Shown piece after piece: positions 696 through 41,244 of a DNA stretch of 64,000 bases. The stretch lies in assembly GCF_013122565.1 (NCBI RefSeq), contig NZ_CP053258.1; one strand, 5' to 3'. Source of the DNA: Escherichia coli (GTDB lineage Bacteria; Pseudomonadota; Gammaproteobacteria; Enterobacterales; Enterobacteriaceae). The first letter of the stretch is position 1. Each line of letters begins with the position of its first letter. The notes under the pieces are model-generated. The model had not been told where the DNA came from. It was given only the letters and a program-made list of their open reading frames with translations, and ran no database searches. A program made the position numbers and the translations under genes.

Positions 696-725
696 TTCAT
701 AACCATCAGTCCTCAATGACGATTA

Positions 726-760
726 AACACCATTGCCTGCGCAATGGTGTTTTTGTTTTT
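726..760 (+). terminator. Rho-independent terminator after sra
   Basis: Perfect 11-bp stem aacaccattgc / gcaatggtgtt with 4-nt loop, followed by TTTTTGTTTTT. Confidence 0.65.
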
Positions 761-36979: not shown

Positions 36980-37159
36980 AATGCTCTCCTGTGCTTTTGG
37001 CATGAATCCATCAATAGTAGCAGGCTCGCAGGATTGGTTTTGTTTGCAGCCGTCACATCCCCTCTGCAACACGCAATAATTTCATCGAGGAATCCGTTGC
37101 TTCGGGCTGTTTTCGATAGTATTGATAACATCATCATCATTATTTTATCGAGGCCAGAC

Positions 37160-37678
37160 ATGTCCATCCGTTTTGCCCGCAAAGCCGATTGCGCTGCTAT
37201 TGCGGAAATTTTTAACCACGCCGTGTTGTATACGGCGGCTATCTGGAATGACCAAACGGTGGATGCAGATAACCGCATTGCCTGGTTTGAAGCGCGGACC
37301 ATAGCAGGTTATCCGGTGCTGGTAAGTGAAGAAGATGGCGTAGTGACGGGATATGCCTCGTTTGGCGACTGGCGTAGTTTCGATGGTTTTCGCCATACCG
37401 TGGAACATTCGGTTTATGTCCATCCCGATCATCAGGGCAAAGGTCTGGGGCGTAAATTGTTAAGCCGATTGATTGATGAAGCGCGGGATTGCGGGAAGCA
37501 TGTCATGGTCGCCGGGATCGAATCGCAAAACCAGGCCTCGCTGCATCTGCACCAGTCGCTGGGATTTGTCATCACCGCACAAATGCCGCAGGTAGGCACT
37601 AAATTTGGTCGTTGGCTGGATCTGACATTTATGCAGTTGCAACTCGACGAACGCACTGAACCGGACGCGATTGGATGA
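37160..37678 (+). CDS. mnaT: GNAT L-amino acid N-acyltransferase (172 aa)
   Basis: Track ORF 36926..37678 has a long N-extension overlapping curA; real start MSIRFARKADCAAIAEIFNHAV; GNAT motif HQGKGLGRKLL. Confidence 0.85.
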   Translation: MSIRFARKADCAAIAEIFNHAVLYTAAIWNDQTVDADNRIAWFEARTIAGYPVLVSEEDGVVTGYASFGDWRSFDGFRHTVEHSVYVHPDHQGKGLGRKLLSRLIDEARDCGKHVMVAGIESQNQASLHLHQSLGFVITAQMPQVGTKFGRWLDLTFMQLQLDERTEPDAIG

Positions 37679-38124
37679 ATCAGTCGCTCACCCTTGCCTT
37701 TTTGATTGCCGCCGGAATTGGTCTGGTAGTCCAGAACACGCTGATGGTGCGCATCACCCAGACCTCCTCTACCATTCTCATCGCCATGTTGCTGAACTCA
37801 CTGGTGGGGATTGTGCTCTTTGTTTCTATTTTATGGTTTAAACAAGGTATGGCGGGGTTTGGCGAACTGGTGTCCAGCGTGCGCTGGTGGACACTTATAC
37901 CTGGCTTGCTGGGATCGTTTTTTGTCTTCGCCAGTATCAGCGGATATCAGAATGTGGGAGCGGCGACAACTATTGCAGTACTGGTCGCCAGCCAGCTGAT
38001 TGGCGGTCTGGTGCTGGATATCTTCCGCAGTCATGGCGTACCACTACGGGCGTTGTTCGGCCCAATTTGTGGCGCAATTTTACTTGTGGTTGGCGCCTGG
38101 CTGGTGGCCAGACGCTCATTTTAA
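37675..38124 (+). CDS. ydcZ: DMT-like inner membrane protein, DUF606 (149 aa)
   Basis: Track ORF 149 aa; start overlaps mnaT stop; four hydrophobic helices. Confidence 0.82.
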   Translation: MNQSLTLAFLIAAGIGLVVQNTLMVRITQTSSTILIAMLLNSLVGIVLFVSILWFKQGMAGFGELVSSVRWWTLIPGLLGSFFVFASISGYQNVGAATTIAVLVASQLIGGLVLDIFRSHGVPLRALFGPICGAILLVVGAWLVARRSF

Positions 38125-38358
38125 TCACAGGATGGTGCCGCCTTTGGTTAACTGTTCGTGGCGCGCTTCCATATCTTCTTTATGCTTGCGACCGTGATGG
38201 GCGATCGCTGTGCGCAGACGTTGCTGCTGGGTGTAGCGATCTTCCCGACTTAACTCCGCGTCATCGCTCAGGGCGATTAATAATTCGTTCATATGGGCAA
38301 TGACGCTCTCTTCAATCGCGGCATCCACGCGCGCGATGACTTCATCCAGATGCGACAT
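38125..38358 (-). CDS. ydcY: Small protein YdcY (77 aa)
   Basis: Track ORF 77 aa; conserved position. Confidence 0.75.
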   Translation of the reverse strand: MSHLDEVIARVDAAIEESVIAHMNELLIALSDDAELSREDRYTQQQRLRTAIAHHGRKHKEDMEARHEQLTKGGTIL

Positions 38359-38443
38359 ACTTTCTCCTTAGCCACTTGTGAAATTTATCGATTCATCCAA
38401 ATGATATAAGTCTGCGTGGTGCCGTCAAGCCAGTGAGTAAGAT

Positions 38444-38617
38444 TTAAAACAGTGAAAACAACAGCGCCACCGGGAAACTCATCGGCCATGTTGCCCCCAC
38501 CAGAAAGGCGCTTAAGAAACGGATGCGTTTCTTATCGTGAGAAAGAAACCAGGTGATAAGAAATGCGATTGCTGCCATAACCGCATAAAAAACAAGCATG
38601 TGTTGATAGAGAGACAT
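38444..38617 (-). CDS. ortT: Small membrane orphan toxin OrtT / YdcX (57 aa)
   Basis: Track ORF 38444..38692; 57-aa form starts MSLYQHMLVFYAVMAAIAFLITWFLSHDKKRIRFLSAFLVGATWPMSFPVALLFSLF (two TM helices). Confidence 0.7.
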   Translation of the reverse strand: MSLYQHMLVFYAVMAAIAFLITWFLSHDKKRIRFLSAFLVGATWPMSFPVALLFSLF

Positions 38618-38811
38618 GTACGGGCGTCCAGCCAGATGAATAAAACGCGCGCAAATATGCGTCATTTTTTGACATGCATCAAGTTTTTTCACCAGTTTGA
38701 GAAAAAATCATCAAACAGCAACTTGCCCTTATCCATCTTCAGAATGAGTATTATTGCGGATTTTCTTAACCCGTACTATACACATAGGGGCAATGATAAA
38801 AGGTGGCAAAA

Positions 38812-38907
38812 ATGAATGTTTCCAGTAGAACTGTAGTACTGATAAATGTCTTTGCTGCTGTTGGTTTGTTTACTCTTATCTCTATGAGATTTGGCTGGTT
38901 TATTTGA
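38812..38907 (+). CDS. yncL: Small membrane protein YncL (31 aa)
   Basis: Not in track. Hand translation MNVSSRTVVLINVFAAVGLFTLISMRFGWFI*; AAAGGTGG SD 8 nt upstream; single TM helix. Confidence 0.6.
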   Translation: MNVSSRTVVLINVFAAVGLFTLISMRFGWFI

Positions 38908-38928
38908 TGTAGTGATTTTGCACGCAGC

Positions 38929-38965
38929 ACGTACTGTCAGAGAAAACAACTCTCTGACAGTACGT
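38929..38965. terminator. Long perfect hairpin between yncL and patD
   Basis: 15-bp perfect stem acgtactgtcagaga / tctctgacagtacgt with 7-nt loop; no clear U-run on either side. Confidence 0.4.
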
Positions 38966-39003
38966 AAGATCATCTCATACTCTTACGATCTGCAATATTA
39001 TCC

Positions 39004-40428
39004 TTAATGTTTAACCATGACGTGGCGGACGACGGTGTAATCCTCCAGCCCATAAAGTGACATATCCTTGCCGTAACCAGAAAGTTTCTGCCCACCGTGC
39101 GGCATTTCACTTACCAGCATGAAATGGGTATTGACCCAGGTACAACCATATTGCAGCCGTGCGCTGACGCGATGCGCCCTGCCCACATCTTTCGTCCATA
39201 CCGAAGATGCAAGTCCGTACTGGCTGTCATTCGCCCAGTTTACCACCTGTTCTTCGTTGTCGAAGAGCGTAACACTCACTACTGGACCAAATACCTCTTT
39301 TTGCACGATGGCATCGTCCTGTAATGCGCCAGCCAGCAGCGTCGGCGCATAGTAATAGCCATTACCCTTGCGCTTTTCACCGCCAGTGATCACTTTGATG
39401 TGCCCTGTCGCTTTCGCCTCTTCTACCGCTTTGCTAACGCGTTCGAGATGCGCCAGCGAGCTTAAAGGTCCAAGCTCCGTAGACTCGTCATCCGGCGCAC
39501 CAGATTTTAACGTTGCCACTGCAGCACCGAGTTTTTCCACCAGCGTATCGTAAATGCCTTTTTGCGCGTAGATCCGACAAGCCGCAGTACAATCCTGTCC
39601 GGCATTGTAATAGCCAAATGTACGTACACCTTCGACCACTGCTTCAATATCCGCATCATCAAAAACAATCACTGGCGCTTTGCCACCAAGTTCCATATGA
39701 GTTCGCTTAATGGACGGCGCGGTATGGCTGATGATGTGCTCGCCGGTGGCGATAGAGCCCGTCAGCGACGCCATCCGCACTTTGGGATGACCGGTCAGCG
39801 GATCGCCCACCGTTTTGCCTCTGCCAAACAGTACGTTAATCACGCCTGCCGGGAAGATATCTTTCGCCAGCTCTGCCAACTTCAACGCGGTCAGCGGGGT
39901 AATTTCTGATGGTTTAAGCACTACGCAGTTCCCTGCCGCCAGCGCCGGAGCCAATTTCCACGCTGCCATCATCAGCGGATAATTCCACGGTGCGATCGAA
40001 GCCACGACCCCCAATGGATCGCGACGGATCATCGAAGTATGACCTTCAAGATATTCACCTGCCGCCAGACCATTCAGACAGCGCGCCGCACCAGCGAAAA
40101 AGCGAAAAACATCGACAATCGCCGGGATTTCATCATTGAATGCACTATGCAGCGGTTTGCCACAATTACGGGATTCCAGTTCGGCAAAAACCTGACCATT
40201 TTCTTCGATAACATCCGCCAGTTTCAGCAGGCATTCCGCACGCGCTTTCGGCGTGGTTTGCCCCCATTCGGCAAATGCTGCATCTGCCGCGCGCACAGCA
40301 GCATCCACCTGCTCTACGGATGCCTCGGCAATCTCCAGTAAAACGTCCCCCGTTGCCGGATTATAAACAGGCTGTTTTTCCCCTTCGCCGCTAACCAGTT
40401 CTCCGTTAATCAGTAACTTATGTTGCAT
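39004..40428 (-). CDS. patD: Gamma-aminobutyraldehyde dehydrogenase (474 aa)
   Basis: Track ORF 474 aa; aldehyde dehydrogenase family (MELGGKAP, catalytic Cys in GQDCTAACR). Confidence 0.93.
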
Positions 40429-40449
40429 AGCATATTCCTGTATCAGTGG

Positions 40450-41244
40450 TTATTGACCATTGTCGCCTTCGCGGGTTAGCCACCAGGCCCCCAGGATCGG
40501 CAAGGTTGTTACCAACATAACCAGCAGTGCCACCACGTTGGTTACCGGTACATCACGCGGTCGCCCAAGCTGATTGAGCAACCACAACGGTAACGTTCGT
40601 TCATGACCTGCCGTAAAGGTCGTAACGATGATTTCATCGAACGACAAGGCAAACGCCAGCATTCCTCCTGCCAGTAGCGCCGAACTGAGATTCGGCAACA
40701 CTACGTAGCGGAAGGTTTGCCAGCCATTGGCCCCAAGATCCATTGACGCCTCAACCAGATTCCACGAGGTGCGGCGAAAACGGGCGATGACATTGTTAAA
40801 CACCACCACTACGCAAAAAGTCGCATGACCGACCACGATGGTGAAAAATCCCGGCTCCAGATTGATGGTTTTAAAAGCGGTTAATAGCGCCAGACCAGTG
40901 ACAATGCCCGGCAGCGCAATGGGCAGCAGCAGTAACAGCGAAATGGCGTTTTTGCCGAAAAAGTCTCGTCGCCACAGCGCGGCAGCTGCCAGCGTCCCTA
41001 ACACCAGCGCGATTAATGTCGCCAGCGCTGCCACTTTAAGTGACAGTGTCACTGCATCAAGAATATCACTACGCTGTGCTGCCACGCTAAACCAGCGCAG
41101 CGTCAGGCCTTGCGGTGGAAAACTAAACGCCGCATCTTCAGTGTTAAACGCATAGGCGGCGATAATCAGGATGGGAAAATGTAGGAAAACCACGCCGCCC
41201 CAGGCCGCCAGTTTGAGGAAAAACGGTGCGCGTTCAGAGTGCAT
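40450..41244 (-). CDS. ydcV: ABC transporter permease (264 aa)
   Basis: Track ORF 264 aa; polyamine-type ABC permease; overlaps ydcU by 11 nt. Confidence 0.88.

What the first reader, a model, noticed from the sequence alone, without database searches (positions are those of the whole stretch)
38929..38965. Unusually long perfect hairpin between yncL and patD
A 15-bp perfect stem with 7-nt loop and no adjacent U-run on either strand, so not a canonical intrinsic terminator. It may be an RNA-stability element, an RNase processing site or a protein-binding palindrome serving the convergent yncL and patD transcripts.
Basis: seen in the sequence. Interest (0 to 1): 0.25.

Follow-up and report, generated by a model that had tools for sequence, protein, structure and literature searches.

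The report
Protective 3' hairpin of yncL mRNA
The palindrome is real, but it is an ordinary kind of element: the stem-loop that caps the 3' end of the short stress-induced yncL mRNA in E. coli, a transcript that appears to be terminated further downstream by Rho and trimmed back to this hairpin.

Summary
Positions 38929-38965 form a perfect 15-bp stem with a 7-nt loop and no U-run on either strand. It is the longest perfect hairpin in the window, which is E. coli. It is single-copy per genome and absent from phages and true plasmids, so it is not a REP variant.

The hairpin belongs to yncL, not patD. An orthologous stem-loop sits about 20-35 nt after the yncL stop in Escherichia species, Citrobacter and other enterobacterial contigs, whatever gene lies downstream. 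Ten of 16 stem pairs show compensatory changes, while the loop varies freely (4-9 nt).

Published Term-seq data for K-12 (Adams et al. 2021) list a very abundant 3' end on the yncL strand in all three growth conditions. I map it to window position 38967, 2 nt past the stem. The same study reports a bicyclomycin-sensitive Rho termination region about 286 nt downstream (Rho score 16.6). The 50 nt after the stem are C-rich and G-poor in all 15 sequences examined.

This matches the class described by Dar and Sorek (2018): a protective stem-loop at the steady-state 3' end of a Rho-terminated transcript. Exonuclease trimming is inferred, and a role for patD is untested.

It is a new member of a known kind, of low interest.

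The parts
38812..38907 (+). yncL coding sequence (31 aa, MNVSSRTVVLINVFAAVGLFTLISMRFGWFI), the gene whose 3' untranslated region carries the hairpin
   Evidence: ORF list. RefSeq annotates it as 'stress response membrane protein YncL'. Pfam family PF28073 is recorded on orthologues.
38908..38928 (+). 21-nt spacer between the yncL stop codon and the stem; conserved across Escherichia (TGTAGTGATTTTGCACGCAGC)
   Evidence: Alignments A1 and A2.
38929..38943 (+). 5' arm of the hairpin (ACGTACTGTCAGAGA)
   Evidence: Covariation with the 3' arm.
38944..38950 (+). Loop (AAACAAC); hypervariable in sequence and length (4-9 nt) among strains and species
38951..38965 (+). 3' arm of the hairpin (TCTCTGACAGTACGT)
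38967..38967 (+). Position equivalent to the dominant steady-state RNA 3' end mapped in K-12 MG1655 (coordinate 1517039, minus strand): ...CUCUGACAGUACGCAA-3'
   Evidence: Term-seq table of Adams et al. 2021, PMC7815308, Supplementary file 1. Read counts are 75,265 in LB OD 0.4 and 536,300 in LB OD 2.0, and the end is also listed in M63. I transferred the coordinate to the window using two neighbouring table entries and a K-12 locus with no indels relative to the window.
38966..39015 (+). C-rich, G-poor, pyrimidine-rich tract directly after the stem (C 11, G 4 in 50 nt). It is a candidate Rho-utilisation region. It contains the blocks GATCWTCTCAYACTC and ATTATCCTTAAT, which are also conserved in Citrobacter.
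   Evidence: Composition in 15 sequences (C 10-19 against G 3-8). Block conservation. The rut function is inferred.
39253..39253 (+). Position equivalent to the peak of the published Rho termination region (MG1655 1516753, minus strand), antisense inside patD and about 286 nt past the hairpin
   Evidence: Adams et al. 2021, Supplementary file 2: Rho score 16.6, p = 5e-21. Reads upstream/downstream were 220/9 without bicyclomycin and 106/72 with it. Coordinate transfer. The score uses 800-nt windows, so the position is approximate.
39004..40428 (-). patD (aminobutyraldehyde dehydrogenase), the convergent neighbour. Its stop codon lies 38 nt from the hairpin, and in this arrangement it has no terminator hairpin of its own.
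   Evidence: Comparison with patD terminators in other genera and in islet-carrying E. coli.
38996..39013 (.). Junction sequence (ATTATCCTTAATGTTTAA) at which about 22% of E. coli genomes carry an extra 1.3 kb, comprising a CatB-related O-acetyltransferase gene and a patD-proximal hairpin with a T-run
   Evidence: The BLAST alignment breaks at query positions 297-314. Annotation and sequence of L002. Terminator comparison.

Best explanation
The hairpin is the 3'-terminal stem-loop of the short, RpoS-dependent yncL mRNA.

The stem is not followed by a U-tract, so RNA polymerase is not released there. Transcription continues into the C-rich, G-poor sequence just downstream and into the antisense strand of patD, where Rho terminates it. 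3'-to-5' exonucleases then trim the RNA back until the stable stem blocks them. This leaves an abundant transcript that ends 2-3 nt past the stem.

Shown directly:
- The stem exists.
- The stem is conserved by compensatory substitution and stays with yncL across genera.
- In K-12 a dominant RNA 3' end maps to the stem base.
- A bicyclomycin-sensitive termination region lies downstream.

Inferred:
- That the K-12 data apply to this strain's more perfect allele.
- That the downstream tract is the rut site.
- That exonuclease trimming, rather than termination at the stem, creates the observed end.
For: Anatomy:
- The stem is perfect over 15 bp, stable, and has no U-run.

Association with yncL:
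- An orthologous hairpin lies about 20-35 nt after the yncL stop in E. coli, other Escherichia lineages, E. whittamii, E. albertii, Citrobacter and further enterobacterial metagenome contigs.
- This holds although the downstream gene differs: patD, an AraC-family regulator, an HTH_31 protein, a SulP transporter or IS1.

Structural selection:
- Ten of 16 pairs carry changes on both sides.
- 84% of cells are paired, against at most 49% when partners are slid.
- The covariation score is 0.295 against 0.150, and no shuffle of 500 reached it (a smaller set).
- The loop is free to vary.

Experimental 3' end:
- Term-seq gives a 3' end at MG1655 1517039 (minus strand) in all three conditions, with very high counts that are about 7-fold higher in stationary phase.
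- This corresponds to window position 38967.
- yncL is RpoS-dependent according to PMC5437024 and PMC5493296.

Rho involvement:
- A Rho termination region with score 16.6 lies about 286 nt downstream on the same strand.

Downstream composition:
- C exceeds G in the 50 nt after the stem in all 15 sequences examined.

Match to a described class:
- Dar and Sorek 2018 describe Rho-dependent transcripts with precise 3' ends immediately downstream of stable stem-loops that lack U-rich tails, followed by C-over-G enrichment.
Against: - The Term-seq and bicyclomycin data come from K-12, whose allele has a 13-bp stem and 9-nt loop, not from this strain.
- The Rho score uses 800-nt windows and is a region-level call. 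The read-through cannot be assigned uniquely to the yncL promoter.
- The C-over-G bias after the stem is mild. For a 78-nt window it falls at the 76th percentile of this window's background.
- No exonuclease-mutant data were available to me.
- Compensatory changes in a long DNA palindrome can also arise from template-switch (quasipalindrome) mutation without selection on RNA. This is from my own knowledge and was not tested.
- In all Escherichia alleles the opposite-strand RNA folds at least as well as the yncL-sense RNA. Four independent mismatches are A.C on the yncL strand and G.U on the other. This does not favour the yncL strand as the only selected one. However, other lineages show G.U on the yncL strand, so the asymmetry is not significant.
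Confidence: 0.75

Rival explanations
1. Bidirectional element. The same palindrome also caps the patD mRNA on the opposite strand and limits mutual antisense read-through between the two convergent genes.
For: - The opposite-strand hairpin is as stable or more stable in every Escherichia allele: -27.3 against -25.0 kcal/mol here, and up to 5 kcal/mol better in E. albertii.
- In this arrangement patD has no hairpin of its own. Other genera and islet-carrying E. coli have a patD-proximal AGTGGCTG...CAGCCACT hairpin with a T-run.
- ExcludonFinder lists patD-yncL among convergent overlapping pairs.
Against: - No patD 3' end is listed in the K-12 Term-seq tables in any of three conditions. All three 'patD' entries are the yncL-strand end. 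patD may simply be poorly expressed in those conditions.
- The hairpin is conserved in Citrobacter and E. albertii, where patD is not the neighbour. patD therefore cannot be what maintains it there.
Confidence: 0.3
2. Non-canonical Rho-independent terminator. The very stable hairpin alone releases RNA polymerase without a U-tract.
For: - The 3' end is sharp and extremely abundant.
- In one metagenomic lineage (L129, L198) the homologous hairpin is followed by a run of 5-6 T, like a canonical terminator.
Against: - There is no U-run on either strand.
- The 3' end lies only 2-3 nt past the stem. Established knowledge of intrinsic termination places the end about 7-9 nt past the stem, within a U-tract.
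- Bicyclomycin raises downstream coverage from 4% to 68% of upstream coverage.
Confidence: 0.12
3. RNase III or other endonuclease processing site that acts on the stem, or on the duplex formed by the overlapping convergent transcripts.
For: - The gene pair is flagged as an excludon candidate.
- yncL mRNA abundance changes in RNase E/RNase III mutants according to Stead et al. 2011. The direction of change was not available to me.
Against: - The mapped 3' end lies outside the stem, not within it.
- At 13-16 bp the stem is shorter than typical RNase III substrates (own knowledge).
- The hairpin persists where the convergent partner differs.
Confidence: 0.07
4. DNA-level element: a protein-binding dyad operator, a cruciform, or the remnant of a mobile element such as REP, a MITE, or a recombination site linked to the nearby 1.3-kb indel.
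For: - The dyad is perfect.
- The inner core CAGAGAG/CTCTCTG is conserved in sequence across genera.
- The region just downstream is a hotspot for insertions and gene replacement.
Against: - It is single-copy per genome. The 'two places' reported per genome are the palindrome hitting both strands.
- There is no phage match, and the six 'plasmid' hits are non-mobilizable E. coli records that appear to be chromosomes or chromosomal fragments (three are 4.8-4.9 Mb long).
- Ten of 16 positions covary.
- The spacer varies from 4 to 9 nt, which does not fit a fixed-geometry dimer site.
- It lies at the 3' ends of genes.
- The indel junction is about 40 nt from the stem, not at it.
Confidence: 0.04

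Closest known systems
[quoted passage not shown]
   Same: A stable stem-loop with no U-rich tail and no upstream A-tract. The RNA 3' end lies immediately downstream of the stem. C-over-G enrichment follows, and read-through downstream is sensitive to bicyclomycin.
   Different: The stem is longer and more perfect than a typical terminator-like hairpin. It sits in a 96-nt gap shared with a convergent gene. Protection from PNPase or RNase II was not tested for this site.
Canonical and bidirectional intrinsic terminators between convergent genes (bidirectional class: Ju et al. 2019, cited from my own knowledge and from the text of PMC7815308)
   Same: A palindromic hairpin between convergent genes that folds on both strands.
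   Different: It lacks the U-tract and A-tract that make such hairpins terminate in either direction. The 3' end lies 2-3 nt past the stem, not within a U-run. Rho-dependent read-through is detected.
REP/BIME palindromes acting as mRNA 3' stabilisers (own knowledge: Newbury et al. 1987)
   Same: An intergenic palindrome without a U-tract that can block 3' exonucleases.
   Different: It is single-copy and locus-specific, has no REP consensus, and covaries as an orthologous element with yncL.
Salmonella STnc1110, the yncL-encoding 'coding sRNA' (PMC5437024)
   Same: The same gene, expressed as a short, discrete, RpoS-dependent transcript.
   Different: I could not retrieve the Salmonella 3' region, so whether it ends in the orthologous hairpin is not shown here. 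No Rfam family matched the window region.

Membership tests
Protective 3' stem-loop of a Rho-terminated transcript (Dar and Sorek class) | The steady-state RNA 3' end lies immediately downstream of an energetically stable stem-loop | tested here: met
   The K-12 Term-seq end at 1517039 (minus strand) corresponds to window 38967, 2-3 nt past the stem. Hairpin energy is -21.6 kcal/mol for the K-12 allele and -25.0 for the window allele.
Protective 3' stem-loop of a Rho-terminated transcript (Dar and Sorek class) | No U-rich tract after the stem and no A-tract before it | tested here: met
   The tail is AAGATCATCTC and the preceding sequence is GCACGCAGC. The terminator scan does not call the site.
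Protective 3' stem-loop of a Rho-terminated transcript (Dar and Sorek class) | Transcription past the stem depends on Rho (read-through when Rho is inhibited) | tested here: met
   A published Rho termination region lies about 286 nt downstream on the same strand, with score 16.6 and p = 5e-21. This is a region-level call in K-12, not in this strain.
Protective 3' stem-loop of a Rho-terminated transcript (Dar and Sorek class) | C-over-G (rut-like) composition just downstream | tested here: met
   C 11 against G 4 in the 50 nt after the stem, and C exceeds G in all 15 sequences. The bias is mild against the window's background.
Protective 3' stem-loop of a Rho-terminated transcript (Dar and Sorek class) | The stem blocks PNPase/RNase II, so 3'-extended or destabilised RNA appears in mutants | not testable with these tools
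   This needs 3'-end mapping in pnp/rnb mutants or stem mutagenesis.
Intrinsic (Rho-independent) terminator | A U-tract directly after the stem | tested here: not met
   Neither strand has a T-run.
Intrinsic (Rho-independent) terminator | The RNA 3' end lies within the U-tract, about 7-9 nt after the stem | tested here: not met
   The end is 2-3 nt after the stem.
REP/BIME repeated extragenic palindrome | Many dispersed copies per genome | tested here: not met
   There is one locus per genome in 5411 of 5426 E. coli genomes. The median of 2 'places' is the palindrome matching both strands. No other copy occurs in the window.
RNase III-processed excludon duplex | Overlapping convergent transcription | tested here: met
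   patD-yncL is listed among convergent excludon candidates by ExcludonFinder. Rho-region read-through runs antisense to patD.
RNase III-processed excludon duplex | RNA ends are generated by cleavage within the double-stranded region | tested here: not met
   The dominant 3' end is outside the stem, at its base. No rnc-mutant end mapping was available.
Dimeric protein-binding operator | Fixed spacing between half-sites, with half-site sequence rather than complementarity conserved | tested here: not met
   The spacer is 4-9 nt and unconserved, and 10 of 16 positions change on both sides in ways that preserve pairing.

The most novel reading that the evidence does not exclude
Most E. coli lost patD's ancestral intrinsic terminator in a deletion of about 1.3 kb between CTTAAT(A/G)TTTA repeats. 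That terminator is still present in the roughly 22% of strains that carry the CatB-like islet, and in other genera. The yncL hairpin, which folds even better on the opposite strand, has since been co-opted as the 3' cap of patD mRNA as well. On this reading one U-less palindrome defines both convergent 3' ends and sets the boundary of a yncL/patD excludon.
Probability: 0.25. Interest if true: 0.35.

Novelty: new member of a known kind. Interest (0 to 1): 0.15.

Why it matters
It explains how a 31-codon stress gene produces a very abundant, discrete transcript without a canonical terminator. It also provides a clean, covariation-supported example of the protective stem-loop class at Rho-dependent 3' ends. 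The published Term-seq table labels this end 'antisense to patD', so the link to yncL is easy to miss. Beyond annotation and a possible case study in terminator loss and sharing between convergent genes, it opens no major question.

Tried and rejected
- **Rfam scan** of 37000-41000 at E up to 10 found only a chance sucA-motif hit inside patD.
- **Consensus terminator and promoter scan** found nothing at the hairpin. A weak promoter-like match at 38954-38981 is within chance expectation.
- **REP or mobile-element idea** rejected: the element is single-copy, has no phage hits, and the 'plasmid' hits appear to be chromosomal records.
- **LexA-box resemblance** (CTGT...ACAG) rejected by eye. The spacing is 19 nt, not 8.
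- **Integron attC idea**, prompted by the CatB-like neighbour, rejected by eye. The loop does not fit RYYYAAC, and the indel junction is about 40 nt from the stem.
I used exact-sequence cluster look-ups and encoding-contig look-ups instead.
- **Supplementary tables** of Dar and Sorek 2018, Stead et al. 2011 and the '3'-UTR valves' Term-seq paper are not held as text.
- **The Salmonella (STnc1110) 3' region** could not be retrieved.
- **Strand-of-selection test** from G.U against A.C mismatches was inconclusive: 4 events favour the patD strand in Escherichia and about 3 favour the yncL strand elsewhere.

Full report
**Observation.** Window positions 38929-38943 and 38951-38965 are perfectly complementary over 15 nt, around the 7-nt loop AAACAAC. 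As RNA the hairpin folds at -25.0 kcal/mol on the + strand. On the - strand it folds at -27.3 kcal/mol, because two G.U pairs extend the stem to 17 bp. The z-score is about -7, and none of 200 shuffles fold as well. It is the longest perfect hairpin in the 64-kb window, and 60 Markov resamplings never exceeded 12 bp. Neither strand has a T-run after the stem, and the terminator scan does not call the site. The window is E. coli. The flanking ORFs are annotated in near-identical RefSeq genomes as yncL (+, 38812-38907) and patD (-, 39004-40428).

**Copy number and alleles.** A 66-nt query around the hairpin finds one locus in 5411 of 5426 complete E. coli genomes. The reported median of two 'places' per genome arises because the palindrome also aligns to itself on the other strand, as a local BLAST against the window shows. 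There is no phage match. The six 'plasmid' hits are non-mobilizable E. coli records that appear to be chromosomes or chromosomal fragments; three of them are 4.8-4.9 Mb long. The element is therefore not a REP variant or a mobile repeat.

The perfect 15-bp form is a minority allele. K-12, O157 and most genomes have a 13-bp stem (CGTACTGTCAGAG/CTCTGACAGTACG) with the 9-nt loop AAATCAGTG and an outer A.C mismatch. Intermediate 14- and 15-bp alleles exist. No complete genome has the window's exact loop. Within E. coli the 13 core pairs are invariant and the differences cluster in the loop.

**The hairpin belongs to yncL.** I fetched patD loci from 80 genomes. I also fetched yncL loci through exact-sequence look-ups and a metagenome DNA-pattern scan.

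In other genera patD is followed by its own GC-rich hairpin with a T-run. By contrast, a hairpin orthologous to the one studied here lies about 20-35 nt after the yncL stop in several Escherichia lineages, E. whittamii, E. albertii, Citrobacter species and further enterobacterial contigs. This holds whatever lies downstream: patD at various distances, an AraC-family regulator with an MFS transporter, an HTH_31 protein with an acetyltransferase, a SulP transporter, or IS1. Superficieibacter has a different, GC-rich hairpin at the same place.

**Covariation.** On a 22-sequence alignment:
- 10 of 16 stem pairs show changes on both sides that keep pairing. Examples are T-A to C-G, G-C to A-T or C-G, and T-A to G-C.
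- 84% of cells are paired, against at most 49% when partners are slid.
- The covariation score is 0.295 against 0.150 for shuffles, and no shuffle of 500 reached it (a smaller set).
- Loop length ranges from 4 to 9 nt with no conservation.

This is the signature of a selected stem-loop and does not fit a fixed-geometry protein operator. One caveat, from my own knowledge, is that long DNA palindromes can acquire symmetric changes by template-switch mutation.

**Experimental evidence from the literature.** The Term-seq tables of Adams et al. 2021 (PMC7815308, Supplementary file 1) list a dominant 3' end at MG1655 1517039 on the minus strand, which is the yncL strand. It appears in all three growth conditions, with 75,265 reads in LB OD 0.4 and 536,300 in LB OD 2.0. 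The table classes it 'antisense to patD', probably because it lies more than 50 nt past the yncL stop.

The printed sequence column is 61 nt long. I used two neighbouring entries and a K-12 locus that has no indels relative to the window. These show that the 3' end is base 51 of that string...CUCUGACAGUACGCAA. This equals window position 38967, 2 nt past the window's stem and 3 nt past the K-12 stem.

Supplementary file 2 of the same paper lists a Rho termination region on the same strand at 1516753. This is about window 39253, roughly 286 nt downstream and antisense inside patD. Its Rho score is 16.6 with p = 5e-21. Downstream coverage rises from 9/220 of upstream coverage without bicyclomycin to 72/106 with it.

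yncL is RpoS-dependent. In Salmonella it was first annotated as the sRNA STnc1110 (PMC5437024). An RpoS SELEX peak lies between yncL and ortT (PMC5493296). This fits the stationary-phase increase in read count.

**Mechanism.** The anatomy is a stable stem, no U-tail, and a 3' end at the stem base, followed by 50 nt with C exceeding G. Here the counts are C 11 and G 4, and across the 15 sequences examined they are C 10-19 and G 3-8. A bicyclomycin-sensitive region lies downstream.

This matches the class defined by Dar and Sorek 2018 (PMC6061677): Rho-dependent transcripts whose steady-state 3' ends lie immediately after protective stem-loops lacking U-rich tails, with rut sites just downstream. 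I therefore conclude, with a confidence of about 0.75, that the hairpin is the protective 3' cap of the yncL mRNA. On this model Rho terminates downstream and exonucleases trim the RNA back to the stem.

The trimming step and the rut assignment are inferred. The C-over-G bias is mild against this window's background. The experimental data come from the K-12 allele, not from this strain.

**Rivals.**
- *Hairpin-only termination* is disfavoured. There is no U-tract, the end lies only 2-3 nt past the stem, and bicyclomycin causes read-through. In one metagenomic lineage, however, the homologous hairpin does carry a T-run.
- *An RNase III/excludon site* is compatible with patD-yncL being listed as a convergent excludon candidate. 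It is also compatible with altered yncL RNA in RNase mutants. But the mapped end lies outside the stem.
- *A DNA-level or protein-binding role* is disfavoured by the covariation and the variable spacer.
- *A bidirectional role for patD* remains open. The opposite-strand hairpin is at least as stable in all Escherichia alleles, and patD has no terminator of its own in this arrangement. However, no patD 3' end is listed in the K-12 tables, and the hairpin is maintained where patD is not adjacent.

**Side finding that bears on patD.** About 22% of E. coli genomes carry an extra 1.3 kb between the hairpin region and patD. The junction lies within ATTATCCTTAATGTTTAA (38996-39013). The extra DNA encodes a low-GC CatB-related O-acetyltransferase. 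Next to patD it carries the hairpin TAGTGGCTGT...ACGGCCACTA followed by TCGTTTT, which resembles the patD terminators of other genera. This suggests that the window-type arrangement arose by deletion between CTTAAT(A/G)TTTA repeats and removed patD's own terminator.

**Verdict.** The feature is real, conserved and functional-looking, but of a known kind. It is a locus-specific member of the protective 3' stem-loop class, and it has not been individually described in the papers I could search. Interest is low (0.15).

Noticed in passing
window 38996-39013; L002 3300-4625: About 22% of complete E. coli genomes (roughly 1,180 of 5,415) carry a low-GC insertion of about 1.3 kb between the yncL hairpin region and patD. 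It encodes a CatB-related O-acetyltransferase. It also retains a patD-proximal hairpin with a T-run resembling the patD terminators of other genera. The window-type arrangement therefore looks like a deletion between CTTAAT(A/G)TTTA repeats.
   Followed up: partly
window 38944-38952 (loop and inner stem): Differences among E. coli strains cluster in the loop and include a three-base replacement (CAACTC against CAGTGC), while the 13 core pairs and most flanking bases are invariant. This may be a template-switch (quasipalindrome) mutation signature.
   Followed up: no
L001 2248-2945; L089/L090 1734-2431: IS1 sits next to this locus in two independent cases. In the K-12-like strain LAM_HS an IS1A replaces yncL. 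In E. albertii an IS1 lies about 80 nt past the hairpin, and patD is elsewhere with its own terminator.
   Followed up: no
L100-L110, L012-L014 (Citrobacter), downstream of yncL: The gene downstream of the yncL hairpin differs among Citrobacter strains: AraC regulator with MFS transporter, HTH_31 with GNAT, SulP transporter, or patD at 600-700 nt. The ortT-yncL pair and the motif ATTATCCTTA after the hairpin stay constant. This looks like a recombination hotspot just past that motif.
   Followed up: partly
L129, L194, L214, L198 (metagenome contigs), 3' of yncL: In an unidentified enterobacterial lineage the homologous hairpin (GTTGGCGGGGAGG...CCTCTCCGCCGAC) has an outer extension followed by a run of 5-6 T, so it looks like a canonical intrinsic terminator. 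The U-tract may have been lost or gained along the Escherichia/Citrobacter branch.
   Followed up: no
window 725-752 and 12850-12879: These are the next-longest perfect hairpins in the window. 725-752 (AAACACCATTGCCTGCGCAATGGTGTTT, 12 bp) has the A-tract/T-tract form of a bidirectional intrinsic terminator. The same sequence appears as a very strong Term-seq end (MG1655 1555765) in the Adams et al. table. 12850-12879 (13 bp, AT-rich) was not examined.
   Followed up: no
L008 490-866 (E. coli ATCC 25922): patD is annotated as a frameshifted pseudogene in this ATCC 25922 assembly.
   Followed up: no
window 38444-38692 and 38812-38907: yncL is always paired divergently with the orphan toxin gene ortT in Escherichia, Citrobacter and Superficieibacter. 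An RpoS SELEX peak is reported in their shared promoter region (PMC5493296).
   Followed up: no
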